A stretch of 64,000 bases of DNA from Raja brachyura. Its lineage: Eukaryota. The stretch lies in the NCBI GenBank assembly GCA_963514005.1, contig OY740797.1, positions 19,468,001 through 19,532,000 on the forward strand, in the 5' to 3' direction. The notes below the pieces were generated by a model. That model saw only the letters and a program-made list of their open reading frames with translations. It made no database searches and was not told where the DNA came from. The translations under genes and the position numbers were made by a program. Numbering within the stretch: position 1 is the stretch's first letter; each line of letters starts with the position of its first letter. Of the stretch, positions 2,861 to 61,210 are shown one piece after another.

Positions 2861-3516
2861 TTTGTCGGAAGGAACTGCAGATGCTGGTTTACACAGAAGA
2901 TAGACACAAAATGCTGGAGTAACTCAGTGGGACAAGCAGCATCTCTGGTTAGAAGGAATGGGTGATTTCAACAAGGGTCTCGACCCAAAACATCACCCAT
3001 TCCTTCTATCTATTCTTCACCAGAAGGACTTTGGTGGTTGAAGAATGTGGATTACTGCCACCATTTGGAGAGTATATAGGAATGGACAATAAATACTGAC
3101 CTAGTCACCAATACCCATGTCCCAGAAAATTAATGAAAAAATAAAACTTACTGTCCCTTTAATTGTTTATTCTTGCAAAGGAAGTGCTAGGCAAAGTCAG
3201 AGCCAAGGGTATCAATGCAAGATCATAGTGCAGCAAGGGGCAAGAGAATATTTGAACAAACCAGGTAAATCCACTACTCCACCTTGTTTTATGTTTAATA
3301 CATTTTCAGGATTTAGGCATTACTGGAAAGTTCAGTATCTATCGAAAATCAAAAGGCCGGCACTGGCCAGAAATCTGAAATAAAGGCAGAAAATAGTGGA
3401 AATGGTCAACAAGTCAAGTAGTATCTGTGTAAAGTGTAAATAGGGTTTCAGGTGGAGGATTCCCCCCTCCCCCTCCCCTTGACATCAGAACAGGGAAAGA
3501 GAGAAAACAATGTTCA

Positions 3517-3644
3517 AGAAGGAACTGCAGAAGCTGGAAAATCGAAGGTAGACAAAAGTGCTGGAGAAACTCAGCGGGTGAGGCAGCATCTATGGAGCGA
3601 AGGAAATGGGCAACGTTTCAGGCCGAAACTCTTCTTCAGACCTA
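3517..3644 (-). mobile_element. Penelope-derived terminal repeat copy with hammerhead-like motif (3607-3644)
   Basis: Minus strand reads UAGGU-CUGAAGA-A-GAGUUUCGGCCU-GAAAC-GUU-GCCCA; stem II is partly mismatched. Confidence 0.7.
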
Positions 3645-4357
3645 GAAGAGAGAAAACAAGTTAGTTTCAAGTGGCATGGATGGCGGGAAAGGGATAGATA
3701 GGACAAAGGGATTGTCACTGATGGAATGAGGCCAGGATTGCTATGGTAATAAGTGTGGATGTAGCTATTCTTGTTGACAGGTTGAAGGATGTTGGAGACA
3801 GAAAACCATGAGTAATTTAGTTTTAATTCGTGTTTTCTAATTGTTGGCAAAGGAGAAAAAGGAAACAAGAAAGTAAAAGCTATGAAACATAGCAGGAAAT
3901 AGTCAGCAAGTTTTGCCTTACAGAGAAAGGAAAATCTAAGCCAATAATGCTGAAGGATCATTAGAACAGAGCTAGTGACATGAGATATAATCACACAAAG
4001 CAAGTCACATGATGTTGAAGAAATCAACATTAAGGTCTGGAAGGCTGCAACAGCCCAGATGGAAAATGAATAACAGTGGGCATGTGCACCCAACTGGCAT
4101 TTTCCAGGAAGCTAGTTCTTCAAAGCAAATGTTTTTTGTCACTCCGTTATTGTGTGTTAAATATGCTCAAGCCATTGAAAGCATAATTGCCAGAGTGGTG
4201 TGTTCAAGGTAGGGATCTGTGTGTGACCCAAGGCAGTGTCTTCTTATCCTTTGTACAGAATTTATCTTGTGCATGAACATGGGAGCTGTTCAGTTCCATC
4301 TCTTAATCATAGCACAGGACCCAGGTCTTGCTACCACAAAATAAAGTACTGAGGACA

Positions 4358-4526
4358 CAAGGTTGGTGCAGTTTGTTACACAACTGAACCCAAGGCCTTT
4401 ACATCTTTCCTAAAGTGTAGTGACTAGAATTGGAAAAAGAAGCGTTTTAACCAATTCTAATCACTACACTTTAGGAAAGATGTAAAGGCCTTTGGTTTGG
4501 TTGAGTAACAAACTGCACAAACATTG
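4358..4526. repeat. Long inverted repeat (about 76-bp arms, 17-nt spacer)
   Basis: 4358-4433 is the reverse complement of 4451-4526 with few mismatches. Confidence 0.9.
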
Positions 4527-5366
4527 GCAGAGTATCTCCTACAAGAGACAGGTAGACAAAACTGAGTCCAAACTCTTACTTGTGCCAACCTGCTCCATTT
4601 CAAATAAATCTGCCTCCCACATTGATCCTGCAATTCTGATGGGTCAATTTTAGATGGGTCATTGACCAGTGGTATTTCATGAAAAGTCTGTAAGTTCATG
4701 CAGGAGTGTGTCAATGTGAAATTTGGCCAAGTGTGGATTTCAGTTGTGTTTTTGAATGGAATTATATCTATATAGTTGATGCACGTGCATATGAGCATGA
4801 AGCTATAGAAATTGAATAACTTTTGCATGTGGTGTAGATGTATGTGGATGACCACCATCGTATGTGTGCATTTCTCTTTGATATCTGAGCATGTGCATTA
4901 TCGTGAATATGTGTGTGTGGTTGCATGATCTTCAGTCATCATTCAGTCTGCAACACACTTGTTTCTGAAATAGAGTCATGATTAGAAGCCCCATGCATGA
5001 GTTTTGAACATAAAATATTCAGGTTGACAGTCCTATAGTTCAGTGGGTGTGATTTAGTTTGGATGTACTTTCTTTCCAGGAAAATTCAAACTTTTTAATA
5101 TAAAATTTAGATAAAAGCTCTAGTGGTTATCTTAATTTAGTAGAGAAAAAAAAAATCACTTTTTTTAAAATAATGAACAATTAATCCTCTCCTGTGACCT
5201 ATATTAATTGCACATCAAAAACACTTAAATCAAGTTACTGTATTTGGCTATGTGTTTTATTGCTGCTTGCTGAAACTTGTGTGCAAATGAGTTTCTGCTT
5301 TCCCTATATTGCAGCAAGAATTTAGTGTGAGTGTTTGGCCAACAATACTCACAGCTGACCTTATCG

Positions 5367-6180
5367 AAAGACACAAAAAGCTGGAGTAACTCAGCGGGAC
5401 AGGCAACATCTCTGGAGAGAAGGAATGGGTGATGTTTCGGGTCGAGACCCTTCTTCAGACTGGTTATGGATAAGGGAAACGAGAGATATGGACAGTAATA
5501 ATGGAAAGATAAAGGGAAAGAGAGATATGCAAAAGAAGAGAGATATGCAAAAAAAAGTAACGATGATAAAGGAAACAGGCCATTGTAAGCTGTTTGTAGG
5601 ATGAAAATGAGAAGCTAGTGTGACTTGGGTGGGGGAGAGATAGAGAGAGAGAGAGGGAATGCCGGGGCTATCTGAAGTGAGATAAATCAATCTTCATACC
5701 ACTGGGCTGTAAGCTGCCCAAGTGAAATATGAGATGCTGTTCCTCCAATTTGCGTTTAGCCTCACTCTGACAATGGAGGAGACCGAGGACAAAAAGGTCT
5801 GTGCAGGAATGGGAAGGAGAATTAAACTGTCCAGCAACTGGGAGATCAGGTTGGTGCACGTGGGCTGAGCGAAGGTGTTCCATGAAACAATCGCCCAGTC
5901 TGCGTTTGGTCTCGCTGATGTATAAGAGTCCACATCTTGAACTGTGGATACAGTAGATGAGTTTGGAGGAGGTGCAACTGAACCTCTGCCTAACCTGAAA
6001 GGACTGTCAGGGTCCCTGGACAGAGTCGAGGGAGGAGGTGTAGGGACAGGTGTTACATCTTCTGTGGTTGCAGGGGAAGGTACCTGGGAAGGTGGTGGTT
6101 TGGGTGGGAAGGGATGAGTTAACTAGGGAGTTGTGGAGGGAATGGTCTCCGTGGGACGCGGAAAGGGGTGGAGATGGGAA
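5367..6180 (-). mobile_element. Penelope-like element 3' part: GIY-YIG endonuclease remnant plus pseudo-LTR
   Basis: Peptides TFPCNHRRCNTCPY and EHLRS...LPVAGQFNSPSHS...RKLEEQHLIFHLGSLQPSGM, followed by a terminal repeat shared with about 10 dispersed copies. Confidence 0.85.
5427..5463 (-). ncRNA. Minimal hammerhead ribozyme-like motif in the Penelope pseudo-LTR
   Basis: Minus strand reads CUGAAGA-A-GGGUC-UC-GACCC-GAAAC-AUC-ACCC: both core boxes and a perfect 5-bp stem II. Confidence 0.7.
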
Positions 6181-9100
6181 AATCATAAAGAAAGCCGCCC
6201 ACAATGGTCTAGCCACCTTCATGCCATGAATTTCCCTTTTCCTATGTGGACTGCTGTCAGGTTTTAATTCAAACACTCCCATTGTGTGCAAGTAGCAAAA
6301 ATTCACTAAAATTCCTGATCCGAAATGCCCTGGAGAGTACAGTGTATCAAACTAGCTGTAAGTTGAATTTGGGGCAGAGGCATTTGTTTACATAATTGTA
6401 AACTTATCATCTGCAATGTGACAATGTTAACTCATGGATAACATTATGGTTCTGGAGTGCCAGGTGTGCCCTTACATGCATTTACAAGAGTAAACATCAA
6501 AGGAAAAACTTCTTAACAACTTTTAGACTGTTGACAAACTCAAACATTATCTTCCTTCAAAGTATCACTATGGTACTAGTGACCGAATATTGAGCATTCT
6601 TGGACAATTCACGGTCATGTAACAGACAAGCAAGATGAAAATGGCACAATTAAAAGGAGGGTTGTGTTAATCAGCTCAAACGGTTCAGGCAAAATTTAGG
6701 TGTAAAGAAAAGGTTATGTTTATGAGAAACTACCTACAATAGTATTCAGCAGTTCTGATGCAAGAAAACTGGCTCAACAGCCAATGACATTATGGCATAT
6801 AACTAGGAGGGAAGGGTGGAGTTTTTAGTTTGTATTTCAAATATATTTCACAAAATTCTAAATAGGAATTGGAATATTTACAATAAGGTAGAAGCTAAAA
6901 AAACCATAAAGAAGCATCATGATCATTATTTCCAGTATTTATTTGATAGCATTACAATATATATACAGAATATTAGTTTCTTGGGGCCAGAAAGTTTGGT
7001 ATTGATTCACTTGCAGATCATGCTGTTAAACCTCGCAGACCAAAAATATTTCAGGATATTCTACAGTATGAAAGTTTGGCAAATCATCATTTCTAGCAGA
7101 GCAGGCTGCAAATTGCAGATGAGGGCTGAATTATAGATACTAGTTTTGGGATTTCCATATTAAGCAATGTATGTTCTGAAATTGTGAGGTTGATGGTATA
7201 ATAATGGCAAATGCCAATGGATTGGCCCATTAAAACGGTAAAGTCTGGACCTAGGAGTGGTGTTTAATTGACTGTAATGAGCATGGAGATACTCTGAGCA
7301 GTTAGGTCATCCTGAGGTTGTGCAAATCTTCATCTAAGTTACGTTTTTGTCTTTGTATATGTGCTTCTACACCCTATTGGGACTGGATGTTGGTATACTT
7401 ATTGTGCATTAGTATTAGTTTCAATTTCTGTGATGTATTGTGACCATAGCCATTTCACTAACCATACCCACTTGCATTCCTTCACTTAATTCTGGTACAA
7501 TAACTTGATTTGGTGTCACCATAATTGACAATCAGCAAATTGTAAGCCACTGACCAGATCTCCCGTTTATCTTTTTCACAGTCAGATCACCAGATAAATG
7601 ATTTGCAATGTAGGCTCCATCAGTGTCCTTGAGGTACATCTTTGTAATTTGCATAGACAATGAATCCTGTGAAAGAGAAATAGAAACCAGCTCCTGCTTC
7701 ACTTACAAATAGGAGCTGTTGGTATATGACCTACTTAGACCTTTCGGAAGATGTGGGATATGTAATGAGCCATGCTGTGATTCTGAGAAAGGCCAATACA
7801 TTTATTTGAGGAATGAATAACAACTATGAAAAATGATAGTTGTAAGCATAGCAACAAAGGGAACATTTATCTATATTGCAACTTGAATTAATTAAATCTT
7901 CCCAATGAGTTTTATAAATGTATCATTAACCAAAATATACTCAGCGGGAATGATATCTAAATTGTGGTGTATTATAAGGGAATTTCAGGATAAGTGAACA
8001 GAATCATGGTCAATAAGATTTGTTTGGAACAACTGAAAGTAGGAAATAAAGATAAAGGAGAAAACAGATTTAGTAAGCATATTCTCAAACAGTCTTAAAG
8101 AAGAAGCCAGTCATCAAAAAGCAATGAAAATTATAAACGTGCCAGGCTCAGAACTGAGGGCGCCCATGGATGTTTGGTGGTTGCAGCTTTGGAAATTACA
8201 GAGAGACAGTGCATCCTTGGATAGATTTGAACATTAGAATATTTTTTAAATGGAGCTGTTCCTTGACTGTGAGCCAATGTAGGTCAATGAGCAAAGTTTT
8301 ACATTAGTTAGGGATGGAAAGTGGGAAGCCATCCAGGAAACCATTTGATGTGTTGAATCTGAATGATAAATCAAATGCAAATGGGGAATATTACAGAAGT
8401 ATACCAGGGATGCTTGGATGAGTGCTTGTACACATTTAATGAATTTACAAATGAAGCTGTGATGTTACTTTGGGACACTACATCACAAATAGTTGCTTCA
8501 CAAGCACAATCATTACAAATAGTTGTAATGGTTACTGTCAATGAAGATCCACAGCGTTTATATGTATTTCCAGTGGAATTTCAACAAGAGCTCAGGGACT
8601 CCACCACCTCAATCACGAGTTTAGGAATTAATCTTCTCATGCATTTTATTGTATGCCAGTTTAAGCTGGACAATCCTTTTCATGAAGGTGTCTGTTTAAC
8701 ATTGTGATTGTAATCAATCAAGTTATCCCATTAGCCACATTTTCTAAGAGGATGTTTATTTATTAACAATAATTTATTAAGAAGCAAGTCAAACAACAGC
8801 TTCTACATCCACATTTAAATAAAGGAATCAGAAAACTAATGTTTGAGTTGCTGTTTCCTTGGACCCTGCTTTGAAGGACATAATGTTTACATATAACAAG
8901 ATTGGTTACCCACTAAAATGCAGAAAAATTGGTCTTGCACATTGAATTAACATGATAAGTCTGAATTGCTGCCAAGCAACAACTTTGGCACTGAAAGTTT
9001 TATTTTAGAGGAGTGAAATTTTGATCCTTCAGATCTTAATTATTGTCAGAGATATTATAATGAAAGACTACAATTATTTTAATCCCATCTTTCTCTCCCT

Positions 9101-13665: not shown

Positions 13666-14190
13666 TCTGTGTGTAAAAGAATTAAGTCACATAGTGTACC
13701 TGAATACATGGCTACTCCAATTGTAGGAAATGTGCCCCTGTTAGAGTCTGGGTATATTGTTGAGGAATGGACCGAAGTCTTATCTTCGGTGTAAACCAGC
13801 ATCGGCAGTTCCTTCCTACACATTACACTTATCATATTCTTTCAATGCACTTTGGGATTGACTGTATTTTTGCACCACAGCAGTGAGATAGAATTGTGTG
13901 AACACAAATAATCAAAGAATTCAATTGAAAATGCTAAGGGAATATCATTGTTATTTTAATACTGGAAAATAGATTCCAGTATCGGTGAATGGTACCATAT
14001 TACATTTTCTTTGTTCATTTAGAACAATAGAAAAATGACGAGACAGAGAAAGGTCATTTGTCACATTGTGTCTGTGCCAGTCAAAACATTGCTCTACACC
14101 TTCCATACTTGATCCATAACCCTGTAGATCATGGCTCTTCTAGTACACATCCAAGTGTTGCCTAAATGTCATGAGAGGTTCTGCTTTTTT

Positions 14191-15436
14191 GAAATATCAC
14201 ATTTACATAAGTATTCAGACCCTTTACTCAATACTTTGTTGGGGCACCTTTGGCAGCGATTACAGCCTCAATTTTTTTTTGAGTATGACACTACAAGCTT
14301 GGCACACCTGTATTTGGGTAATTTCTCCAATTCTTCTCTGCAGATCCTCTCAAGCACTGTCAGGTTGGATGGGGAACGTCGATGCACAGCTATTTTCAGG
14401 TTCCTCCAGAGATGTTTGATCGGGTTCAAGTCCGGGCTCTGGCTGGGCCACTCAAGAACATTCACAGACTTGTCATAAAGCCACTCCTAGTTGTCTTGGC
14501 TGTGTGCTGAGGGTCATTGTCCTGTTGGAAGGTGAACCTCCGCCCCAGTCTGTGGTGCATAACGCTCTGGAGCAGGTTTTCATCAAGGATCTCTCTGTAC
14601 TTTGCTCTGTTTATCTTTCCCTCGATCCTGACTAGTCTCCCTGTTCCTGCTGCTGAAAAACATTCCCACAGCATGATGCTGCCAACACCATGCTTCACCA
14701 TAGGTATGGTATTGGCCAGGTGATGAGCGGTGCTTGGTTTCCTCCAGACGTGATGCTTGGCATTCAGACCAAAGAGTTCAATCTTGGTTTAATCAGACCA
14801 GAGAATCTTGTTTCTCTTGCCTTTTGGCAAACTCCAAGCGAGCTGTCATGTGCCTTTTGCTGAGGAGTGGCTTCCGTCTAGCCAGTCTACCATAAAGGCC
14901 TGATTGGTGGAGTGCTGCAGATAGAGCTGTGCTTCTGGAAGGTTCTCCCATCTCCACAGAGGAACTCTGGAGCTCTGTCGGAGCGACCATCGGGTTCTTG
15001 GTCACTTTCCTGACCAAGGCCCTTCTCCCCCGATTGCTCAGTTTGGCCAGGCAGCCAGCTCTATGAAGAGTCCTGATGGTTCCAAAGTTCTACCATTTAA
15101 TGGTAGACTGTCCACAGTCCACTGTGCTCTTCGGGACCTGCAATGCTGCAGAAATTGTTTTATACCCTTCCCCAGATCTGTGTCTCAACACAATCCTGTC
15201 TCGGAGGTCTACGGACAATTTTGCTCAATTGTGAGTGTCGTAGCAAAGGATCTGAATACTTATGTAAATGTGATATTTCAGTTATTTCTTTTTAAGTACT
15301 GTTTTCGCTTTTTCATTGTCGGGTATTGTGTGTAGATTGATGATTAAAAAATGAATTTAATCCATTTTAAAATAAGGCTGTAACGTAACAAAATGTGGAA
15401 AATATGAAGGGGTCTGAATACTTTCCGAATGCACTG
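14191..15436 (-). mobile_element. Tc1/mariner element (Passport-like), defective, outer part of one TIR missing
   Basis: Transposase fragments [27 protein letters not shown] and WPSQSPDLNPIKHLW. The right end is ...GAATGCACTG followed by TA. Confidence 0.92.
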
Positions 15437-18400
15437 TACACATGTCATAATCACAGACTTTGGCTCATCCACCCTGATTCAAAATTTCTCTGTAGCCATG
15501 GATCGCGATGATTTCTATCAATTTCCAGATACTGCAGATTCAACACACTGTCTGCCATGCCTTTCTTAAAATGATTGATTTAGCTGATTTCATAAATTTA
15601 ATTAACTCTGTCACTGCTAGTTTAACATCATCAAAGTCCATGCTTTGATCTGGCTCCACAGACCTATTTCCCCCAGTACCACTATTTTTGATTCACCTAA
15701 TTTTTGAAGTAACCAGTAATTAACCAAGCACTTAACCAGATGTTGAACTAATGGAACCCTATCTTTGAGAACCTACCAGTCATCATCTATAAATCATTCC
15801 TCTTTGCTTTCTGGCAGATAGTCAATGTTTGGATCCTATGGGCATTTGTTTTAATGACCAGAATACCATTTTGGATTTTGTACAATGCCATGCTGAAACA
15901 CGTGCAGACCATCATTGATTCTCAGCATTACATAGCCAGATATGGCTTTTCCTTAACAAATCCACGTTGACTGTCCCTGATTTATTTTGTGCTTTTCTAA
16001 ATGAAGGTTTATATTGTCCATTAGAACAGATTCTAATCATTTGCCCACAGTCAAAGTTGTACTAATTGCCGCGAAGATGGGTTTCGACCAGAAATGTTGC
16101 CTATTTCCTTCGCTCCATAGATGCTGCCTCACCCGCTGAGTTTCTCCAGCATTTTTGTCTACCTTCGATTTTCCAGCATATGCAGTTCCTCCTTAACCTA
16201 ATTGCCATGTATGTGTTTGGTTTGTCCATGCCTCTTCCATTGAACAAGACCACAATGTTAGCATTTCTTCAATCATCTGCCATTGCTCCTTTTGCAAGGA
16301 AGGATTGGAAAATCATGGTCAGAGCCTGTGTTTGTATGAGCAGCTTGAGATATATTTCTTCTTGGCTTGGCTGTTCAAAGATACATTTCATGTTCGAAGG
16401 AAGAACATTTGACCCAAAATGTTAACTGGTTTCTTTTTCCACAGATGCTACTTAACTGGCTGTTCTTCCAATATGTTTCTGCTTTGGTGACCAAACAGGT
16501 TTTGCTGTACACTGTTCTAGCAAAACCTTCCTGCTGTTACTTGTTAAGTCTTGGCTAAGCTTGACACATGTTATCCCAGTCATTTCAGTCGTACAGATCC
16601 TTCATAATTCAGTAGCATGAATTGCAAAGGGGCACAAAAGGAGCCACCACACTTCAAAATAATGTCTCAGACACAAACAGCCCACTGGAAGTCCAGAAGG
16701 TAACAGGCAACAGTGGACTGCTTTATCCAGTACAATGTAACATTGTCATCTACTCTGAAATGTAATCCCAATTCATAGCCGTCAATGAAAATGATGACAA
16801 GACCAGAATACAATGCATTCCGTAATGTGTGATTGGTGCAAGCAAACAAGGGCAAAAGTCTCCCTTTACGTCTATATTGATTAGGATAGGTAAGTCCAAC
16901 AGAGAGTTTGCAGTGAGTATGGTTTCAAGTGTACAGGTCATCCAGTGGAGCACCACATCCCCAACCAACTGGAAAATGAAATCCCGGACTGGATGATTCT
17001 TTGCTTAGTATGAATCAGCTTCTGACCTCCAATTATGACCATTGATACCTTTGAACTAATAAACAAAACATTTTAATGAAAAGATAAGGAAATAAATATA
17101 TTACGTCCTTACGGTTGCTCCAGTATTGTCTTGCAGATTAATGTTTCATTTCTGAAGACTCCCAAGACATTTCTTTAAAGTTTGTAAGCCTAAATACTGT
17201 AAATAACCAGTAAAATATATAAATGGACATCCTCTGCAGCAGTTATTTCTTGGTATTTGGGAAGTGATAGGTTAAAGTTGCAATAGTCACATGTTGTGGC
17301 ATATTGAGCCAATCGTGAAAGCAATTACCTTATCAGAAAAGGTCAGTTGGTAGAAAATGAGTGTTCAATGGTCACTTTGCCCACATACTGTTAATCCTCG
17401 TGTAGTCGTCTATGCGCAGGTGTTACCTTGGAGATTTTACAATTATGATTGTAAAATCTCCAGTTTCAGTGTTGAGCCGATACTGACACTGTGGTGACTG
17501 CACAAACACATAGTTTACAGATAATTACAGCCCAGCAACATATTAATTGATGTGTGTCTCCTCCCCAAAAACAGACACTTGCCCAGTCGATCACAAAGTC
17601 GAGGTCTATTCCAGGATGCAGGTTCAAATAGGGTTGAACATTTTAATTTGCTATTTGGATATAGGAATTAAAAATAGAACAGGGTTGAGGTGCCATGCAT
17701 AAAGCGTATATGACATTTCGATATAAGATTTTAACATATTGTAGATAAAATGTTTCCAATGATTATATCAATACAACTGAAAAGTCCTCAGCCTTTTGTA
17801 TATTCCTGACCTTAAACACAACTGAGAATGTAGCTTTTAAGCACCCTACATCAAAAGTGTCACACCTCAGGGTGGCGCGCCTCAAAGGATCACATGCCTA
17901 CTGGTTAAATATCACACTGGTTTCAATCGTCCATTTATTTAACTGATTAAATGTTATGGAACCAAAGGAGCAGCAAAGAATTAGTAACCATCAACAGCTC
18001 AGTAATCAAATCCATCAATATTTTTTTTCCAAAGCACTATTCAGCAAGTATCACTACTACTACTACAAACCATCTTGTGAAATTGTTCAATTAATATCTT
18101 CATTTTATTTATAACTATCATTTTATTTATAACTAACCAACCCACTTAGTCTAGCCTGTTCATAAAATTGGTTCTTTAATCTTAACGAATCCTGAAAGAG
18201 GTACATTGCCCAGTCGGGTATCTGACGCATGAGTTGAACTGGGGTAAGAGATATACGGTGTTAGAACTGAAGTTTCCATCCTGCCTTTGTGAAGATAAAA
18301 TTCCCATATTATACAACAGGGAATTGCAAAGCAGAAGGCGGAAAGGTTGTTCGGCCTGTTTGACAAATTGCAAATGCCTGTGTGTGAAGTGCACCTTGAG

Positions 18401-21400
18401 AGTTGTAGTTCTAACCCATCTGTTGTGAGGCTCCATCATGACTGTAAGCAATTGTGACTACAGAAGAGGAAAAAACCATGGGCCACAAATGGAAGGAAAA
18501 TATAAATTCATTTTTACTATTTAAGCTTTTGAATAAAAATCGGAACTATTAATGTTATTTGAGATGAAATATTCTATGGGAGGTGTTAACTGATTGCACT
18601 AGCACTGGGAGCTTTTATGATATACTTGATGCGGGTTCTGGGGTCAATTGTTCAGTCTGTTATCCAATGATTATGAATTATCTGGACAGGTGCCAATTCT
18701 GATCAGTCAGATCTCAAAATTGTGAAGTGGCAGATCACCAGCGGTGTGAAAGAGAGACAGATCTTTGGTGAAGAAACTATCTGAATGTGGAAAATACTCT
18801 TTATAATTATGTTAATCACTGTATTCCATCCTACCCATCCATTGCCTCTAAACTGATTGATTAGTATCTGTTCCCGGATGAGCAGAGATATCTTCCAAGC
18901 AAACAGTAGGAAGAGCGAAACACAAAATACTCAAGCAACTCAGTGGGTCAGGCAACATCTGTGAAGGGAATGGACAGATGATAATTTGGTGGGGGTTGGG
19001 CGGGGTGTGAAGCTGGAAAAGTGAGTTGAGGTTAGGGCGTGGCCTGGCAAGTAATAGGGGGATATAAGTGAGGAGATTTTGTTTCAAATTTGCTGACAAG
19101 GGAGGTGCAATTGTAGTCTGGCAGGGAGATCTCTACTGCGCTGAGGATAGGCATCAGTTTTTGGATGCCTCGTATCTACTGTTCAACATGACCCCATAGA
19201 CGTGTACCAATCCACCATCTCCTAAACATTTCTGATCACATTGGCTCCCTGCTCTGCCCGTTTCAAACTCCTTCCCAAAATGCTCAAGCAAAACTACCTT
19301 GGCAGACCCATTGCTTATGCCTGCTCCTATCCTGCCAAACCCATCCAAATATCATGATTCTATTTTGTCCATCCTTGTCCAGTCCCTTCCAACCTACATC
19401 TGCAACACCCCACACCACTTCAATAAGTTTTGATTCCTAGTACTTAATTCCTAGTACTCATTTCTACAGTAGAGTCAAACTATGACCTTGCCAAGGTTAT
19501 CATCAGACTTTGGGTTCTCGATGAACTGAGAGCAATGGTGACGGGAATCTGCTGGTAGCATTCGAAAGTTTGGTGATACAAAGTCATGCATCTTAGGTAT
19601 CAATCATCTGGGCCGGGGTCCCTTTAATGCAAGGGGTGAGATAAGGTAAATGGATTTGAGATTGGATAGATGTAAGCAATCGTGTTTGGAACTGGAACAA
19701 AAACCTTTTGGGTGTACAGATATTTATGTACATTGTGAAACATTCACTTGAAGCATCCTATCAGTGCGGGACTGTTTACGGACAACTAAATTTCAACTCA
19801 AGGGAGGTGCTTCCTCATGCACTCTGTTCTGAGTTCATTGCTGGGCTGGCTACAACTGGCCACAAATAGGCCAAATGAAGAAGTGAAGTAATTGAAGTCA
19901 TTGTCACTGGCCAACAAGTTCTGACCTACTGTTGGAACAATTGTGGCCAAGTATATTCCTACCCTTTTAAATCTGTTCTAGCAGTCAGAACACATTGCTT
20001 GAATCTGCTTTGGTGCAGAAGGTTATTAAGATGCAGAACACGGGCAGCTGCTGCTGTTTGTGACTGGCTGCTGCCGTGTGGAATTTAACATTGCAAGATT
20101 ATGGAAATGGGGTTGTTGGGCTGAGGGGAGTTGAGCCAGTCCTTTCAAGTTGTCAGTAATTGATCATTTCTACAGATAATGGGTTTTGTGTTTAATTTTT
20201 AATGGTGCTGTAATGTTATTTGTGGTGCAGTGTGGGTCACCTTGAGAACTCTGCAGATGAAACCCGAAGATCATGAGTGCAGTTCTCAGTCACAGTCATG
20301 AATACAAAGTTCAAGTGTAGACGCAATTCACTAAAATCAATCAGCTGGTTGTACATTGGTTTCAATTTTTAAAAAGGGAGACAAGTCTAATGTCTGCAGA
20401 CAGACATATTTTTGGTGTGGACAGCTTTACTGTCCACTAAGGATGCAAATAAAATATTGACACAAGCCTTATACTGCTAATAGGATATTCTTTATACTGG
20501 TATGGACTCATCTGCAGACTGCAAATAGACTAGGAACAGTTTGTTTACTGTTGTGGACAGAGACCACCTGCAGAGACAGAGTAGGTTGTGCATACTGGAA
20601 CAGTTCCATATTTTGTTACTGTACAAATAAGCAGAGCTTGTACACCAGTACAGACGATCTGCACTATTTAATGTGGTGAGTGACTGATATGTGGCTGTGC
20701 CATATTTCAGTATCCAAGGACACACACAGTCCTGATCAAAGCATAGTGGTGGGTGACTGATGACTCCATTTACTCATACAGACTCCAGCTTTATGCAGCT
20801 TTGTCACGTGGCTTATCTGAACACATTCTGTTGTAGTTCTTTAACTATTTAGCAACCCACATAAGGTTTGTTTTATTTTACTGAAGATTTGCACAGTGTC
20901 CTCCGATTGACCTCCAGCACCCGATCAAATGGCTCAGTGAATGTGAAAGGGCTTTCAACACGAGGGGCAGGGGTGAATATAGAAACAGAGAATTGAGGCC
21001 CCATCCTGTCTTCATCACCAGGACATCTTCCAGCTGCAATCATTTGTGAAGAGGAGCTCTGGATATAAAACTTCAGGAGGGAGTCATTTGTTCTTGGTAT
21101 CAAGAACTAAATATGTTTAAGAAAGCTGGCTGGTGATTGTTCTCACCTCCCCAATTTCAGCTTCAGTTCAATGGCTCATACTTTTCCATGCCTTTTCAAC
21201 AGGTGACCTCAATCAAATTTATCTCCCCATATTATTTACATCAACGTGAGTTGCATTTTGGAATGTAAGCACTCATACTTCTGCTTTACTATTTAGATCA
21301 TTAATAAAAAGGAGAGGTAGAAAGGGATTTGGGGTTTGACAGACTAATCAAGCTATTACTTTACAGTTGGTGAAATCACACAAATCAAATCTCATTGCTC

Positions 21401-23233: not shown

Positions 23234-24002
23234 GTGAGTATCAACTGAGAACAGCTAAAAATTCTTAATTTGAAGTTTAATACTCGGGGTCTGGTCATAG
23301 TTCCCTCTCCATATTTTATATCATTCAACACTTTGGATTAATTCTACCCAGTGACCCCCCTCCCCCCATTGTCTATCAATGACTATATAAACCATTTGAT
23401 GCCTTTGATTATGATATTGGTCTGTAACCAACTCATCAGAATCCTGTTTTATTCATTATTTCATAGGTTTATTGGCCATTCTTTATTATCCTTGCGCAGG
23501 TGTTTTTGGCTGCTATTGTGATCTGTTGCAGTCAATGTAGCTCCATGGTGCTATCAGATAACATTTTCAAGATCTTTATATCAGTGGCAACAAATGACAA
23601 TATTTGTACATGTCAGAGGTTGCATTACGTCAGGCAGCACTTCTGAAGAACATGGATATGTGACGTTTCAACGCGGGACCCTTCAAGATACTTCGGGTTG
23701 GGACCCTTCTGCATTACTTCAACATAGTTTCTCATGCATGGAGTGTGACACTCTCTCCCTAGTGCAAATATTTAGAAGTCTAGCCCTTGTACAAAGATAT
23801 ATCTACATATAAGAGATCCTGTGAGGTTTGTGAACTATTTCTATTTCTTAGGAGAATCCTGGTGTCAAATGATCCCATGGCCCTTTGTAACCTTGGTCTA
23901 CAACCTGATTAATTGACACTTCAACCTACTTTTCCCAATCGTACCAAAGTAACATCAGGAAACTACTAAATTACTAGTACTACCACTAGTAATTACTAAA
24001 GA

Positions 24003-27000
24003 ATAGAAATATAGAAAATAGGTGCAGAAGGAGGCCATTCGGCCCTTTGAGCCAGCACCGGCATTCATTGTGATCATGGCTGATCGTCCCCAATCAATAA
24101 CCCGTGCCTGCCTTCTCCCCATATCCCTTGATTTTCTCTAGCCTCTAGAGTTCTATCTAACTCTCTCTTAAATTCACCCAGTCACTTGGCCTCCACTGCC
24201 CTCTGTGGCAGGGAATTCCACAAATTCACAACTCTCTGGGTGAAAAAGTTTTTTCTCACATCAGCCTTAAATGGCCTCCCCTTTATTCTAAGATTGTGGC
24301 CCGTGGTTCTGGACTCGCCCAACATTGGGAACATTTTTCCTGCATCTAGCTTGTCCAGTCCTTTTATAATTTTATATGTTTCTATAAGATATCCCCTCAT
24401 CCTTCTAAACTCCAGTGAATACAAGCCTAGTCTTTTCAATCTTTCCTCATATAACAGTCCCACCATCCCAGGGATCAATCTCATGAACCTACGCTGCACT
24501 GCCTCAATCACAAGGATGTCCTTCCTCAAATTAGGAGATCAAAACTGTACATAATACTCCAGATGTGGTCTCACCAGAGCCCTATACAACTGCAGAATAA
24601 CCTCTTTACACCTATACTGAAATCCTCTTGTTATGAAGGCCAACATTCCATTAGCTTTCTTCACTGCCTGCAGTACCTGTAAGCCAACTTTCAGTGACCG
24701 GTGTCAAGGATGCCCAGTTCTCGCTGCAACTCCCCCTTACCTAACCCCATTGAGATAATAATCTGCCTCCTTGTTTTTGCCACCAAAGTGGATAACCTCA
24801 CATTTATCTGTATTATACTGCATCGGCCCACTCACTCAATCTGCCCAGGTCACCCTGCAACCTCCTAACAACCTCTTCACAGTTCACACTGCCACCCAGC
24901 TTTGTGTCATCCACAAACTTGCTGTTGTTGCTCCTAATTCCCTCTTCCAAATCATTAATATATATGGTAAACAGTCGCGGCCCCAACACCGAGCCTTGCG
25001 GCACTTCACTTGCCACTGCCTGACATTCTGAAAAGGACCCGTTCATTCCTACTCTTTGCTTCCTGTCTGCCAACCAATTTTCTATCCATGTCAACACCCT
25101 ACCCCCAATACCATGTGCTCTAATTTTAGTCACCAGTCTCCCGTGCGGGACCTTATCAAAGGCTTTCTGAAAGTCCAGATACACTACATCCACTGATACC
25201 CCTTCATCCATTTTACTTGTCAGATCCTTAAAAAATTCAAGAAGATTAGTCAAGCATGATTTCCCTTTCGTAAATCCATGTTGACTTGGACTAATTATTT
25301 TACTGCTATCCAAATGCCCCATTATTACCTCTTTATTAATTGACTCCTGCATCTTTCCCACCATGGAAGTCAGGCTAACTGGTCTGTAATTCCCCATTTA
25401 CTCTCTCGCTTTTTTCTTGAAAAGTGGGATAACATTAGCTATCCTCCAATCCACAGGAACTGACCCTGAATCTATTGAACATTGGAAAATGATCACCAAT
25501 GCGTCCACTATTTCTAGAGCCACCTCCCTGAGGACCCTGGGATGCAGACCATTAGACAAAGGGGATTTATCATAGAAACATAGAAAATAGGTGCAGGAGT
25601 AGGCCATTCGGCCCTTTGAGCCTGCACCGCCATTCAATGTGATCATGGCTGATCATCCAACTCATCCTTCATCCTTCAGTCCAATTAGCCTACCCAATAC
25701 TATTTCTCGCCTAATGAAAATTTCTTTCAGTTCCTCTACCCCCTTAGATCCTCTGTTCTCCAGTACATCTGGGAGATTGTTTGTGTCTTCCTTAGTGAAG
25801 ATAGATCCAAAGTACCTGTTCAACTCTTCTGCCATTTCCTTGTTACCCATAACAATTTTACCCGTGTTTGCCTTCAAGTAACCATATAACCCACATTTGA
25901 CTTTGCTACTCTTTTTCCCTTAACATATCTAACGAAGCTTTTACTGTCCTTCTTTATATTCCTGGTCAGCTTCCCCTCGTACTTCATCTTTTCAGCCCGT
26001 ATTGCCCGTTTTGTTTCCTTTTGTTGTCCTATGAAAGTTTCCCAATCCTCTGGCTTCTGGCTATTCTTTGCTGTGTTATACATCTTTTCTTTTAATTTTA
26101 TTCTATCCCTAATTTATTTTGTCAGCCACGGTTGCCACCTACTCCCCTTAGAAACTTTCTTCCTTTTTGGAATTAAATGAACCGGCGTCTTCTGGATTAT
26201 GCCCAGAAATTCCTGCCATTGCTGTTCCACCGTCATTCCTGCTAGAATCCCTTTCCAGTCTACCCTGGCCAGCTCTTCTCTCATGCTTTCATAGTCCCCT
26301 TTGTTCAGCTGCATCACTGACACTTCTGATTTAACCTTCTCCTTCTCAAATTGCAGATTAAAACTAATCATATTATGATCACTACTTCCAAGCGGTTCCT
26401 TTACCTCGAGTTCTCTTATAAAATCTGGTTCATTGGACAACACTAAATCCAGACTTGCCTTTTTGCTGGTCGGCTCCATTTCAAGCTGCTCTCAGAAGCC
26501 ATCTCAGAGGCACTCTACAAACTCTCTTTCTTGGGGTCCTTCTTCTTCTTTCGTGTGGCGTGCACAGCCTAAAGTTGTTGGACTACTTGTTCTATTTGAT
26601 CTTCCATTTGTGCATGTAGAGTTGATTGCATTAGTCGAAACAGGGCGGACCACATGAAGGTTGCAATCTTCCACCCCTCGTGGGGTCCTGAACCGACCTG
26701 ATTTTCCCAGTCTACCTGCATATTGAAATCCCCCATCACCACAGTGGCATTACCTTTGTTACATGCCAGTTTAACTCCTGCTGCAACTTACACCCTACAT
26801 CCAGGCTACTATTTGGGGGTCTGTAGATAACACCAATTAGTGTCTTCTTGCCTTTACAATTACTCAACTCAAGTGACTCTACCTCGTCAGTCCCTATGTC
26901 TTCGCTCGCAAGGGACTGAATTCCATCCCTCACCAGCAGAGCTACCCCCCCTCCCCCTCTGCCCACCTGCCTGTCCTTTCTATAGGATGTATAACCCTGA

Positions 27001-27290
27001 ATATTAAATTCCCAGGACTGATCCTCCTGCAGCCACGTCTCAGTAATCCCCACAATGTCATATCTACCAACCTCAAACTGAGCCTCAAGCTCATCTACTT
27101 TACTTCTTATACTTCGTGCATTCATATACAATACTTGTAATTCCATACACATCTCACCTTTTACATCGATTCTTATTACACTTGGCCATACTCTCCTATC
27201 CCTTTGTGAGCTTTCTTTCCCGTTAATTCTGGGTTCATTAACTATCCTTTTACTCTCTTTCCCTTTAACTCCGTCTTTGACTATCCCATT
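24003..27290 (-). mobile_element. Long CR1 LINE (APE endonuclease to 3' tail), disrupted, with three small nested insertions
   Basis: LYMNARSIRSK / VGITETW / GGGGVAL (endonuclease); NYRPVSLTS, YLDFQKAFDKV, PQGSVLGP, KFVDDTKL (RT); C-terminal FFTQRVVNLWN. Confidence 0.95.
26541..26680 (-). mobile_element. 140-bp non-LTR insertion with (GAA)n tail and 9-bp TSD
   Basis: TGGGGTCCT is duplicated at 26532-26540 and 26681-26689; a (TCT)n run lies at the left end. Confidence 0.8.
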
Positions 27291-27804
27291 TGACACATTG
27301 AATGCATTTCCTTTTATGGAGCATCTTCCCTGTACCATTCAAAATCTCTCAAAACACGGTTTTCTGTACGGTAAGTTTCAATCATGACCAATTAATCTAT
27401 TTTAGTGATGTTGATTGAGGAATACATATTGATCAGGAGACCAGAGATAACTTGCCTGCTCCTTTTCAAAGTAGGTTGATAAGATTTTTTTACATCCACT
27501 TCAAAAGTCAAATATCTGTTTGCCATCTCATCGAAAATAAGCATCTCTACGAGTGCCTCAGACTTGCTAAAATTTTAACCCACAACTTTTTTTAATGCGG
27601 AGCTATCAACCAAGCTGCACGGACACCGCAAAATGTTTCCTCCCTCCTACTCCACTTCGTCATGTTTTTGAGTCCCAGTACTTGTAATTTTTGTGATATA
27701 TTAATGTTCACTGTTGTTTCCAGCAGTAGTTTTTGTTCCCCATCTGATATAAAGAAGGCCCATGTCCATACCAATTGATTTTATGCACTGTATTCTTCCT
27801 TCAG

Positions 27805-33031: not shown

Positions 33032-33118
33032 TTGATTTTCCCAGATATGGTGGAGGGGATGGTCCTTCTCAATATTGATCCCTGTGGAAAGGGTTGGATT
33101 GACTGGGCAGCAACTAAG
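33032..33118 (+). CDS. NDRG4: NDRG4 coding exon ([29 protein letters not shown])
   Basis: ctttcag / gtcagt, 87 nt. Lies within track ORF 32951..33187. Confidence 0.97.
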
Positions 33119-52186: not shown

Positions 52187-53154
52187 GTACCCATTTCCTG
52201 TTTCTTCGTGAACTATCCCATTGCTTGTGCTATAGCTTGTCTTTGATGTTAAGGCACCGTTCTCTTGCCACCGCATGCACTCATCCATCTGTGCTCTATA
52301 CTTCATTTAAAACTGTTATCTTTCTTGCTACAGCTTCCCACAGCCAATGCACATATGTTGCACTATTTGGCTGTAACTATATATTGACAAGTCATTGACG
52401 TTCACTCTCAGTTGAGCAATGGGAGACATGAATACTCTTGCATTTTCCAAGTTGCAATAAGGCTTTAATGTGTAGACAGGGAACTTTAAATGCTGGTTTA
52501 CAAAAAAAAGACTCAAAGTACTGAATACAGCACTTTGTATTAAGTTTTAATGTGTGTGTAGCATACCTTTTAGATAGCTGAATACAACATCATGTTATTT
52601 GTATTCTGTGACTGATGGATATGATGGAATTGAGGGAAATGAACCAATTGATTGTACAGTGTGTATAGTATAGTGAAGTCAGATGTAGGTCATTGTAAAC
52701 ACATGTAGTAAGCATCCTACTCAATTATAATTACAATGTAGTTGAACCACGAAAGAACAAAATATTGTGGTGAATCTTTCCTTAAATTTAATTAACTTTA
52801 CCTCCCTTTTGACATTGTACCAATGCTTTTCAGTTGGTGTGTTGTGACACTTTTAAATTGGAAACCAGAGAACTAAGTCATATTATCCAAATGGAATTGC
52901 ACCTTTGCCTACTTTTTCTCATGCCTCAGAATCTACAGGTAATCTGATTTTAAAACCTCAATGTTAAGAGATGACTTCTGTATCTGCTGAAAAGATTCCA
53001 CCATACTTTTAATTGACAAAAGTGAGCAATCAAATACTAATGTGATAATCAGCATTCAGTGCAGTAATTTTACTATGGGAGTCGGGTATGTAAGGATAAA
53101 ACTGATTATGCAAATAAAAACACAAACCTAGGGTGGAAAAATAATTATTTATGT

Positions 53155-53647
53155 GTAGGAAGGAACTGCAGATGCTGGTTTAAACTGAAGATAAACACAA
53201 AAAGCTTGAAGTAACTCAGCAGGACTGGCAGCATCTCTAAAGTGAAGGAATAGGTGACGTTTCGTGTTGCGTTCCTTCTTCAGACTAGTTAGGGAAAAGG
53301 GAAACGAGAGATATAGACGATGATGTAGAGAGATAAAGAACAATGAATGAAAGATATGCAAAAAAGTAACGATGATAAAGGAACCCCTCCCTCCCTCACC
53401 CCCACCCCCCCAAGCAGGTTGTACCAGCTTCTCATTTTCACCCAATAAACAGCTAACAGTGGCCTGTTTCATTTATCATTGTTACTTTTTTGCATATCTT
53501 TCATTCATTGTTCTTTACCAATCTACATCATCGTCTATATTTCTCGTTTCCCTTATCCCCAACTAGTCTGAAGAAGGAACTCAACCCAAAACTTCACCTA
53601 TTGCTTCACTTCAGAGATGCTGTCTGTCTCGCTGAGTTACTCAAGCT
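53155..53647. mobile_element. Inverted pair of Penelope-derived pseudo-LTRs
   Basis: 53203-53384 is the reverse complement of 53466-53647; both arms are homologous to 5367-5640. Confidence 0.88.
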
Positions 53648-55201
53648 AATTACTTAGGTGGAAATTACGAGACTAAATTGGTTTAGCACCATTTCTGATC
53701 ATTTTTTCCCAAATCGATTGTGATTGTTCAGATGCTGACATACATTAGTGAATGTTACTTGCTGGAGGAGGGCAGATTTTTCACCATTTGCAGTTTTCAT
53801 TTCAATCAGTATTGCAGCAATGCTGATTAGCTTTTCAAACAATGCTCAATTGTCCCAATCGTCATTTGCTTCAGGAATCTTGGATTCAAACCAACCTCAA
53901 TGCGAGTTGTTTGACAATAAGCATAAGGGTAAGCTTAAAGGATTGTTCCCTTGGTGGTAAATGTAAGAGCAAAAATCTACGTGAAATCTGAACTATTCAT
54001 CTCCGTGATCTTAGAGATGAGATGTGCATCTCACTGTAGGTGGTTACAGTTCAGTCATTCAGCTCTGATGCTCTTCAGCTGCTTTATGATTTGTGAGCAT
54101 TTTAGTAAAAATGAGTAATAATTTGAATGGAACGAGACAACGCACACAGTAAGACACCCACATTTTTAAAATTAAATATTTATTGGAAATTGGATTTACA
54201 GTATTGCTTTTGTTTTAGCATGAATCATTTATTTGGTGATTTTAGTTGTACCAGATTAAGCCATGAGAAGAAACTGGGAAAACACATTACTGTAATTGGT
54301 ATATGATGAAGCCAAAGTATCAATTTAAAGTAACTAGGTCCAGAAGTTCAGCCCACATAACCCTTGCCCTTATAAATCAAATATTGGAGAAAAGGTTCCA
54401 AAGAAGTACTGGTTTCCAAAATGTTCATATGTTATGTTAAGCCCAACCACAGGCAGAACCTTTGTGAAATGTGGGAGATACAGCACAGCCCTGGAGGACA
54501 GGTGATGTAGGAATATAGGGCCATCACTTGATCACAAGAAGGGTGTAATACTTGGACATCACCTGCTTGCAAATTAATCTAGGGTATGCTGCCTTGAGAG
54601 TTTGTGACAAATAGGGAAAGGGGCAGTTAGTGGTAAAACTCTTTATCTGGTATAGTGGGAAACAGGAAAGGTTTTGAGAGCTGCAGCAGTTATGCCAGTT
54701 GTTATATAAATACTATGTCCAAAGGTAGGTTTCATGGCTTGCTTGCTAATATGTGCATATTGCCACCCTGGCCTCTCCCTGCTCTCTGCCTAGGAATGTA
54801 GATGCTGCTCTGGACCTAAACCTGAGTCTAGGTCAGAAATTGCACGTGAAAGCTGAGAAGCAGCATCATCATCCGCATGATGGACCTGTAAAGCTCCATT
54901 AGAAATTAAATGCATGACTTCTGAATACCATTCCAAATGGCATGTCACAATTGTGCTTTCCTATAGGCAGATTATGTATATGACAATGGGTGATCATAGG
55001 AGATACATTGTCTGGCTTCCTACAAACCACTGAATAAACCCTCTTGTGACTGTCCTCAGTATCTGAGAATCAATGAAAACCTTTCCCATTTTGCTGCTTC
55101 AGTAATATTTTGCACTTAAAATGGCTTTGGCTGATTTTGGTTGAACTGGTGTGTTTATTAAATAACATAATGAATGATGATGTCTCTCTTCTCTCACACA
55201 G

Positions 55202-56281: not shown

Positions 56282-56753
56282 CAATAAACCCTTATTTTAA
56301 CGGACGATAGGAGGGGATTGGTGTCTGCTATTGCCCGCTATAACCGACTAAGAAATTACCATTGTATAAGTAGTGGAAACAAACAATTACAGTTGCTGGG
56401 TTAATACACAAAAGGACCCCAAAGTACTGGAGTAACTCAGCAGGTCTAGCAGCATATCTGGAGAACATGGATAGATGATTTTTCACGTTGAGACACTTCT
56501 TCATATGCTCGATCTGGAACTGGACCTGGAATCCAGGTCAGTTGACAGCCCCTGCCTGCTTCTGCCAGGGGAGAGGCGAGGACCAGTGGAGTCAATGGTC
56601 GTGGCCTGAGTGCAAGTAATGGTCAACGGTGGTGGTGGCAGGCCCGACAATGGTGATGGGAGTCGCCGGGGTGGAGTCGGCAGCTGGGGCTGGCGGTCAA
56701 GATCAGTAGGTCAGTCTGCTATAACCAAAATCAGTTATAAAGAGGGTTTACTG
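56282..56753. mobile_element. Tigger/pogo-like MITE with TA TSD, containing a Penelope-derived repeat
   Basis: TA|CAATAAACCCTTATTTTAAC ... GTTATAAAGAGGGTTTACTG|TA imperfect TIRs. Confidence 0.7.
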
Positions 56754-60380: not shown

Positions 60381-60529
60381 CTCGCAGACGTCCCGCCCTC
60401 TGGATCGCCTGATTTACTGCTCGTAGACAGCTCAGAAGCTCTGTGTGGTTGTTACACCGAATCTTGTAACCATTTATCAAGTCTCGATTTAAATCGTAAA
60501 GTTCCATATATCCCTTCTTCATATTTGTC
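60381..60529 (-). CDS. BBS2: BBS2 penultimate coding exon ([49 protein letters not shown])
   Basis: Minus-strand catttag / gtgggt, 149 nt. Lies within track ORF 60349..60717. Confidence 0.96.
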
Positions 60530-60744: not shown

Positions 60745-61210
60745 AAAGATTACCTAAAATTGTAGAGTTCAATGTTCAAACTATTGGGTTGCAAGCTACC
60801 TAAGCGGAATATGAGGTGACGTTCCTCCAGTGTGTATGTGGCATCTGGCTTCACAATTTCTAACTCTTCAATCGTTTTGTCTCACACCTGTATTAATCTC
60901 TGGCCTTTGTTCCAACCATCTGCCTATCAACGCCCCCCACCTTTGTCCACCTGCCATGCTGTCTCTCCTCTCTCCCAATCAATCTGAAGGGTCCTGAGCC
61001 GAAGCGTCGCCTATCCATGTTCTTCAGAGATGCTGCCTGACTCGCTGAGTTACTCCAGCACTTTGTGTCCTTTGCTTTTCTTCCATCCCGGCTCTGATGA
61101 AGTGACAGATTGTCTCTGTGTCTCTTTCCATACATGTTGACCGAAATGTTAAGTGTTTCCAGTATTTTCTGTTTTGATTTCAGATTCATGAGCAACTGCA
61201 GTTTTTTGAT
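60745..61210. mobile_element. Penelope-like remnants in a BBS2 intron
   Basis: Endonuclease C-terminus on the minus strand (EERHLIFRLGSLQPNS), then terminal-repeat copies on the + strand. Confidence 0.7.

What the first reader, a model, noticed from the sequence alone, without database searches (positions are those of the whole stretch)
5427..5463. Dispersed family of minimal hammerhead-ribozyme motifs carried by Penelope-derived repeats
Seen: a repeat of about 130 bp recurs around ten times (about 2868, 3517, 5367, 13782, 16069, 18915, 23660, 53155, 53563, 56385, 60985). Where complete, it contains CTGAAGA-A-[GGGTC TC GACCC hairpin]-GAAAC-RTY followed by bases partly complementary to those before CTGA. 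Known: Penelope-like elements carry minimal hammerheads with a very short stem III that can cleave as dimers. Inference: this is a mostly non-autonomous, ribozyme-bearing retroposon family mobilised by a PLE like the one at 5367-6180. The copies here are mutated to varying degrees.
Basis: partly seen in the sequence, partly recalled or inferred. Interest (0 to 1): 0.7.

Follow-up and report, generated by a model that had tools for sequence, protein, structure and literature searches.

The report
Penelope transposon start-pieces with shrunken hammerhead
This repeat is the front end of a very common jumping gene of a cartilaginous fish, carrying a known small ribozyme-like motif; its estimated million short copies start just before the motif and not at its predicted cut site, which likely marks where the element's RNA begins and suggests that the RNA is copied uncut.

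Summary
The repeat is real: all 11 listed places hold it, and 140 evenly spaced 10-kb genome stretches give 581 hits, about 1.1 million genome-wide by extrapolation. It is the hammerhead-plus-tail segment of a Neptune-type Penelope-like element (PLE). That segment is the element's 5' UTR and is repeated after the GIY-YIG ORF.

No separate non-autonomous family was found: all six sequence subtypes occur as short and as PLE-linked copies, without clustering. Short copies are real insertions (TSDs in 19 of 174, control mean 0.45). Their 5' ends peak 1-7 nt before CUGA, with no peak at the cut site. Best reading: reverse transcriptase starts in the tail and runs off the start of an uncut RNA.

The motif is a known minimal hammerhead. 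Stem I covaries over 3-6 bp in relatives from other animals but is only 2 bp here, and no window copy is fully intact. Cleavage and the transcription start are untested. The scan has reported this reading before on other DNA of this genome.

The parts
5429..5460 (-). Minimal type I hammerhead outline: 2-bp stem I (5460-5459 with 5430-5429), core CTGAAGA 5458-5452, bulged A, 4-bp stem II, GAAA, loop-III palindrome mutated to ACAT, UH = TC ending at 5431
5366..5428 (-). Tail segment of the PLE terminal repeat / 5' UTR, ending at the shorter of the two common 3' end points
5461..5667 (-). Pyrimidine-rich 3' UTR between the ORF stop and the hammerhead, ending in CCAGT
5668..6180 (-). 5'-truncated PLE ORF remnant: CX4CX2C linker and GIY-YIG-type endonuclease, one internal TGA, stop at 5670-5668
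   Evidence: a sister copy hits Pfam GIY-YIG at E 0.004, below the family cut-off
3511..3645 (-). Short copy, 135 bp, starting 6 nt before CTGA, flanked by a perfect 14-bp TSD (3497-3510 and 3646-3659); stem II broken
16071..16197 (+). Short copy, 127 bp, starting at the core, 9-bp TSD (16062-16070 and 16198-16206); core mutated
2868..3010 (-). Tail copy (2868-2986) without the 5' core strand, with an inverted piece of the hammerhead region at its 5' side (about 2970-3010)
13781..13824 (+). Last ~40 nt of the tail only
18915..18989 (-). Diverged copy without hammerhead core
23629..23714 (-). Diverged copy with a stuttered first ~25 nt of the hammerhead
53150..53648 (.). Head-to-head pair: 53150-53383 (-) and 53385-53648 (+), both with part of the PLE 3' UTR; stem II broken in both
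56378..56504 (-). Diverged short copy, core mutated
60769..61075 (+). Diverged copy (60981-61075) with a remnant of the ORF end upstream (60769-60845)

Best explanation
The repeat is the hammerhead-plus-tail segment of an old, very abundant Neptune-type Penelope-like retrotransposon, and the short copies are likely run-off products made when the element's reverse transcriptase starts at one of two sites in the tail and reaches the likely start of an uncut RNA a few bases before CUGA. Shown: the segment is the element's 5' UTR, about 165 nt before the ORF start, and recurs after the stop of the ~3.6-kb unit; short copies are TSD-flanked insertions with two preferred 3' ends and a 5'-end peak at -7 to -1; there is no peak at the predicted cut site; stem I is 2 bp. 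Inferred: internal priming in the tail (by analogy to the anole Poseidon element in vitro); the -7 to -1 zone being the RNA 5' end (Inr-like YCAGT); long, 5'-truncated copies such as 5366-6180 coming from priming on the second, downstream tail of more-than-unit RNA; head-to-head pairs coming from fold-back of the run-off cDNA. The hammerhead was probably at most a weak, dimer- or protein-assisted cutter, and the window copies are decayed.
For: Hammerhead and tail run straight into the ORF N-terminus in 10 of 30 loci fetched with the N-terminal body; 5 of these 10 also begin at the hammerhead's 5' edge with unrelated flank. TSDs in 19 of 174 unique-flank copies against 0-3 (mean 0.45) in 20 mismatched-pair controls, with 18 of 19 5' ends between -10 and +4. 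Estimated 5' ends per nt: 12.5 (non-inverted) and 8.4 (inverted) at -7..-1; 4.2 and 1.2 at +28..+30; 3.4-4.5 in most neighbouring bins of non-inverted copies; 0.22 at -25..-250. Two 3' end classes about 25-35 nt apart match the optional 30-40 bp PLE tail, which PMC11167929 maps to two RT start sites; that paper also found uncut RNA to be the dominant substrate. Short and long copies intermix. 12 of 28 clean fold-back palindromes centre at -1 or -1.5. In a relative's polyA reads, loose ends and strand-switch joints pile at window 5460-5462. Only 6 of 195 unique-flank copies look like hidden long copies.
Against: No direct map of a transcription start. The 5' ends spread over about 14 nt with a shoulder through +36 rather than one base. 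A cap-derived extra G was not significant (9 of 21, expected 0.26, p 0.077, one of several positions tested); the excess in inverted copies (9 of 11) can be templated by the inverted arm. YCAGT is not kept before CTGA in the relatives from other animals. RNA reads showed no pile of molecule starts or ends anywhere and cover both strands equally, as passive transcription would. TSDs are visible in only 11% of unique-flank copies. Re-mobilisation of short copies from their own transcripts would also give intermixed sequences.
Confidence: 0.62

Rival explanations
1. A separate non-autonomous, SINE- or retrozyme-like family of ~130-bp elements with its own source copies, mobilised in trans by the PLE.
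For: Discrete ends and TSDs. Short copies outnumber endonuclease-bearing copies about 15-20 fold and RT-bearing ones about 70-150 fold (blastn coverage 334 against 17-23 and 2-5). Internal priming would trim flanks from any transcript of a short copy. A preprint derives animal retrozymes from PLE pLTRs.
Against: All 6 subtypes have long and short members in similar proportions, and the nearest-neighbour test gives p 0.6. Full-length elements share the same 5' boundary. Direct tandems are rare (4 of 246), unlike retrozymes.
Confidence: 0.15
2. The boundary is not the RNA start but a block or cut on a longer RNA or cDNA: a 3' splice site or lariat (polypyrimidine tract plus YAG one base before the core), RT stalling or fold-back at the TCAG-T-CTGA palindrome, or nicking by the element's endonuclease.
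For: All four upstream subfamilies end in a pyrimidine tract plus CAGT. The D. virilis intron ends at helix I (PMC4209133). Fold-back centres lie on the palindrome. Ends are spread rather than single-base.
Against: No intron-less copy among 81 ORF ends followed by a hammerhead (shortest distance 90 nt). No GT..AG joint among the 15 joints shown of 67 or the 15 shown of 239. The AG is absent in most relatives. PLEs are known to keep introns, so the DNA test is weak.
Confidence: 0.17
3. The hammerhead was an efficient self-cleaver that defined the template RNA's 5' end.
For: Core, bulged A, stem II and palindromic loop III are kept across subfamilies, and stem I covaries in other animals' elements.
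Against: Copies made from cut RNA would start at +29; the estimate there is 12 of 249 (95% 4-20), no higher per nt than most neighbouring bins. 4 of 128 late-starting copies have a TSD-like repeat; the one at +29 duplicates element sequence rather than target. Stem I pairs 3 and 4 form in 6 of 67 and 5 of 67 PLE-linked copies.
Confidence: 0.06

Closest known systems
Minimal type I hammerheads (min-HHR) in pLTRs of metazoan PLEs (Cervera and De la Pena 2014, PMC4209133; read parts 1-2 of 4)
   Same: CUGANGA and GAAA cores, one unpaired base between positions 9 and 10.1, G10.1-C11.1 pair, palindromic loop III, mostly single dispersed motifs tied to truncated PLEs.
   Different: Stem I is 2 bp (paper: 4-5 bp in schistosomes, 2 bp only in the atypical D. 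virilis variant). About 1.1 million pieces are estimated here, against 4,000-9,000 motifs in coelacanth and Xenopus; about 49 per Mb pass my descriptor (69 in 1.4 Mb). No cartilaginous fish is named in the parts I read; supplements not seen.
Neptune-clade EN+ PLEs (Craig et al. 2021, PMC8557442; passages)
   Same: [quoted passage not shown]
   Different: No tree against named reference clades was built, so Neptune versus Nematis rests on motifs and host group. No intact ORF was seen in the copies fetched.
Anolis Poseidon element PAc (Frangieh et al. 2024, PMC11167929; read parts 1-2 of 4)
   Same: Two RT start sites bounding the tail about 110 nt downstream of the hammerhead; uncut RNA used; no reads ending at the cut site.
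   Different: Different clade. In PAc the ORF begins inside the hammerhead; here the ATG lies about 165 nt downstream. PAc was tested in vitro, this element was not.
Non-LTR retrozymes (PMC7229834, passages; bioRxiv 10.64898/2026.07.22.740005, parts 1-3 of 5)
   Same: Short non-coding repeats with a type I hammerhead related to PLE pLTRs.
   Different: Retrozymes are tandem arrays with a hammerhead in each unit, expressed as circles. These are dispersed monomers or head-to-head pairs that begin just before the core.
Solo and inverted pLTRs of rotifer Penelope elements (Arkhipova et al. 2013, PMC3846280; passages)
   Same: Head-to-head palindromic junctions, 8-10 bp TSDs, Inr-like TCACT in the pLTR, solo pLTRs.
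   Different: There, solo pLTRs without TSDs are put down to recombination or deletion, and fold-back to antisense templates. Here solos carry TSDs and share one 5' boundary zone.

Membership tests
PLE minimal type I hammerhead | CUGANGA and GAAA core strands with UH | tested here: met
   Flagged copy yes; 110 of 387 in-register sample copies
PLE minimal type I hammerhead | Stem II with G10.1-C11.1 and a bulged base before it | tested here: met
   88% of stem II cells paired; 54-63 of 67 per pair; varied stems in relatives
PLE minimal type I hammerhead | Palindromic loop III for dimer pairing | tested here: met
   Family: ACGT, 58 and 53 of 67; CG, GC, TA or TG in relatives. The flagged copy itself has ACAT and fails
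PLE minimal type I hammerhead | Stem I of about 4-5 bp | tested here: not met
   Pairs 1-4 form in 55, 56, 6 and 5 of 67; 17 of 20 descriptor hits in PLE-linked copies have 2 bp. Relatives: 20 of 25 hits have 3-6 bp
PLE minimal type I hammerhead | Covariation of stems | tested here: inconclusive
   Within genome weak (covariation score 0.141 against 0.125 +/- 0.009, 20 of 500 shuffles; related sequences). Across other animals' elements stem I pairs change on both sides in about 8 distinct families (read by eye)
PLE minimal type I hammerhead | Self-cleavage as dimer or with protein | not testable with these tools
   Indirect only: no peak of 5' ends at +29; no pile of read ends
EN+ Penelope-like element | Single ORF with RT then GIY-YIG endonuclease | tested here: met
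   RT motifs and EN in line in L141-L152; 44-67% identity to proteins with Pfam PF26215, some also PF00078 and PF01541; window remnant 58% to P0001. All copies seen are broken
EN+ Penelope-like element | pLTR structure, inverted 5' neighbours, optional tail | tested here: met
   133 of 402 with an inverted neighbour; two 3' end classes
Neptune clade | CX2-5CxxC linker before GIY-YIG (shared with Nematis, absent in Penelope/Poseidon) | tested here: met
   CNHRRCNTC in the window frame; criterion from PMC8557442
Neptune clade | RT phylogeny with Neptune references | not tested
Non-LTR retrozyme | Tandem units each with a complete hammerhead | tested here: not met
   4 of 246 have a direct neighbour within 40 nt, two of them partial stutters
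Non-LTR retrozyme | Abundant monomeric circular RNA | not testable with these tools
   Only one polyA raw-read run from a relative was offered
Separate non-autonomous SINE-like family | Own lineage distinct from the autonomous partner | tested here: not met
   (190 copies, 57 long; old copies limit power)

The most novel reading that the evidence does not exclude
In this fish the Neptune transcript starts at the first bases of its hammerhead, so the ribozyme has lost most of stem I and survives mainly as a cis-signal. The roughly one million ~95- and ~130-bp insertions are then strong-stop-like run-off cDNAs: an in vivo, genome-wide record of internal priming that shows both RT start sites and the RNA start, and makes up several percent of the genome without any separate SINE lineage.
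Probability: 0.5. Interest if true: 0.55.

Novelty: new member of a known kind. Interest (0 to 1): 0.36.

Why it matters
The hammerhead in PLEs is known, but its job and the PLE replication cycle are open (PMC8557442 passages; PMC11167929). If the reading holds, this genome gives in vivo support for internal priming on uncut RNA in a second PLE clade. It would also explain about 4% of a vertebrate genome (3.9% of sampled bases) as by-products of one enzyme's habit, and give a natural short-stem-I variant to test whether cleavage is needed at all. For annotation, counting these motifs as ribozymes would be wrong: 51 of 387 keep core, stem II and 2-bp stem I, and 1 has a 4-bp stem I.

Tried and rejected
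Rfam scan: no hammerhead family hit at E up to 10; minimal variants may fall outside those models.

My first protein query (window 5694/5697-6122) was an off-frame translation. Its blanks in Pfam and NCBIfam mean nothing. The one search hits are still DNA copies of the element and were used only as such. The correct frame also gave no Pfam hit when split at the stop; identity rests.

Folding of single copies is no better than shuffles (z -0.03 to +1.09). An alternative hairpin pairing the core with +36..+48 appears in one fold but is not significant.

Cap-derived G: not significant. Spliced genomic copies: none in 81. Splice joints in RNA: none among those shown. Peak at the cut site: none. 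The first TSD test on 800 kb was weak (8 of 95, control 0-4) and was repeated more strictly on 1.4 Mb.

Run search: no RNA holder listed; the contig runs X1, X2 and X8 are only guessed to be RNA and were not used as evidence of expression. A look-up of earlier findings in relatives showed nothing.

Lunse et al. (RNA Biol 14:1499) could not be read; I saw only its title in a reference list. Paper searches listed nothing on hammerheads or short run-off PLE copies in sharks or rays. Repbase, Dfam, subscription journals and supplements were not searched, so this does not show absence from print.

Full report
Observation. The flagged motif is on the minus strand, core C at 5458. A profile built from the copies gives 13 window hits and none in reversed sequence. 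Scored base by base, only the copy at 5458 keeps both core strands and stem II. Its loop III palindrome is broken and its stem I is 2 bp, so no window copy passes a full minimal-hammerhead descriptor. Two window copies have clean TSDs: 14 bp around 3511-3645 and 9 bp around 16071-16197. Pfam finds one exon-sized piece each of an NDRG-family gene (+) and BBS2 (-) in the window.

The parent element. The minus-strand frame 5671-6180 encodes a CX4CX2C linker and a GIY-YIG-type endonuclease, 58% identical over 170 aa to a whale-shark protein. The best database relatives are from sharks and rays, hence 'cartilaginous fish'. Walking upstream through genome copies gave the RT motifs and then the N-terminus. 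In 10 of 30 N-terminal loci the hammerhead and tail run straight into the body, and the ORF starts (MSTLKK-like) about 40 nt after the tail. The unit is about 3.6 kb, my sum of two overlapping loci. So the repeat is the 5' UTR and is repeated after the stop as the terminal repeat. The linker motif points to Neptune or Nematis (PMC8557442 passages); no tree was built. The family is old: the window's ORF part is 89% identical (median of 67) to other copies, and no intact ORF was seen. One early query of mine was off-frame; the correction is.

Unbiased sample. 140 stretches of 10 kb at round coordinates of large contigs hold 581 hits: 415 per Mb, 3.9% of bases, in 126 of 140 stretches, 0 in reversed controls. 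Extrapolated to 2.7 Gb this is about 1.1 million pieces. Of 402 hits that include the hammerhead part and 300 nt of upstream sequence, 74 continue into a PLE 3' UTR, 133 have an inverted copy directly upstream and 195 have other flank. The remaining 179 start later or lie too near a stretch edge and were left out of that split. Only 1 of 232 copies that reach the tail end runs on into the body of the one subfamily tested.

Ends. 3' ends fall in two classes: 251 near +95-100 and 236 near +120-130, of 581. This fits the optional 30-40 bp tail, which PMC11167929 (parts 1-2 of 4 read) maps to two internal RT start sites. TSD-like repeats of 11-24 nt (mostly 11-15; one lies in a CA repeat) flank 19 of 174 unique-flank copies, against a mean of 0.45 in controls; 18 of the 19 start between -10 and +4. 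An EM estimate over 249 non-inverted and 180 inverted copies puts 88 and 59 starts at -7..-1 (12.5 and 8.4 per nt) and 12 (95% 4-20) and 3 at +28..+30. Most other bins inside the first 36 nt hold 3-6 per nt, with a dip to about 1.5 at +22..+27; PLE-linked copies end at 0.22 per nt between -25 and -250. Five of the 10 body-linked elements start at the same edge. Two loci show a short copy inserted into another PLE copy with about 10 nt of target duplicated (L187, L198). Twelve of 28 clean fold-back palindromes centre on TCAG-T-CTGA.

One family or two. Six subtypes defined by +29..+48 all have long, unique-flank and inverted members; 130 of 402 could not be typed. Among 190 copies, nearest neighbours share the length class 109 times, against 110 +/- 8 by permutation. 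This argues against a separate lineage but cannot exclude short copies acting as secondary sources.

Is it a ribozyme. In 67 in-register PLE-linked copies stem II pairs form in 54-63, the loop III palindrome in 53-58, and stem I pairs 1-4 in 55, 56, 6 and 5. Within-genome covariation is weak. In 80 metagenome loci encoding related PLE proteins, the same descriptor finds 25 hits (shuffles 0-3), mostly about 95-170 nt after the ORF end; 20 have a 3-6 bp stem I with different paired sequences in different families. The motif is therefore a real hammerhead in the clade, and this genome's version has the shortest stem I in that set. A 2-bp helix I is known from D. virilis, and min-HHRs cut poorly even as dimers (PMC4209133, parts 1-2 of 4). 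Activity here is untested.

RNA. One polyA raw-read run from a related organism (6% read) covers the hammerhead-tail at depth about 5,000-7,000 on each strand and the ORF end at tens to hundreds. No place has a pile of molecule starts or ends; loose ends and strand switches cluster at 5460-5462. This is what passive transcription of many copies would give. It shows the same boundary in a relative and says nothing on the true start.

Mechanism. Most likely the element's RNA begins a few bases before CUGA, and RT primes in the tail. On the 5' tail it runs off after ~95 or ~130 nt and gives the short copies, sometimes folding back into head-to-head pairs. On the downstream tail of more-than-unit RNA it gives 5'-truncated long copies like 5366-6180 and, rarely, full-length ones. 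Anatomy, ends, TSDs and intermixing are shown; priming mode and the RNA start are inferred. Against it: ends are spread, a cap G is not significant, and YCAGT is not kept in relatives. A splice, stall or nick explanation stays open (0.17).

Novelty. Minimal hammerheads in PLEs, tails, inverted neighbours and solo pLTRs are published. Seven paper searches listed no report of this for cartilaginous fishes or of run-off copies; Repbase, Dfam, supplements and Lunse et al. were not seen. The scan itself holds 59 matching notes for this genome, and at least five of the eight shown reach the same reading on other DNA. I had written this reading down before opening them. They are not independent support. 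I tested two of their added claims, a capped start and rare cutting, and could confirm neither. Verdict: new member of a known kind, interest 0.36.

Noticed in passing
window 4367-4517: 151-bp near-perfect inverted repeat (MITE-like hairpin). It scores against miRNA precursor models below their cut-offs only because it is a long hairpin.
   Followed up: no
window 32942-33184 (+) and 60349-60753 (-): Exon-sized pieces of an NDRG-family gene (Pfam Ndr) and of BBS2 (Pfam BBS2_hp). Gene models were not built.
   Followed up: partly
window 24813-27338 and 29184-31629 (-): LINE remnants with RT and endonuclease/exonuclease/phosphatase domains; longest open frame 429 aa at 29572-30861.
   Followed up: no
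window 14796-15089, 39392-39793, 40247-40741 (-): Tc1/mariner transposase remnants.
   Followed up: no
window 44800-44871: Imperfect 72-bp hairpin, weak Rfam hits on both strands.
   Followed up: no
L187:2633-2764 and L198:2589-2689 (coordinates in element orientation): Short hammerhead-tail copies inserted into the ORF of another copy of the same PLE, with about 10 nt of target duplicated.
   Followed up: partly
L188, L190, L195, L197, L202, L214, L215: Elements with a 5' portion of the PLE joined to a 3' terminal piece, hammerheads 1.3-2.1 kb apart, junctions differing between loci: internal deletions or template jumps, not one deleted family.
   Followed up: partly
L040:2752-3132: Tandem array of about 54-nt tail units without the hammerhead core; similar 'goes back 59' joints in RNA reads.
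   Followed up: no
G000:C15:55805981-55807983: 48-bp minisatellite array derived from the PLE N-terminal coding region.
   Followed up: no
P0016, P0017: Database models of host genes in skates (neuromedin-U receptor 1, DCC) include pieces of this PLE's endonuclease frame, likely mis-annotated or exonised.
   Followed up: no
window 5366-5470 (-): The predicted fold pairs the 5' core strand with +36..+48, an 'off' hairpin that the other subtypes could partly form too; energy is no better than shuffles.
   Followed up: partly
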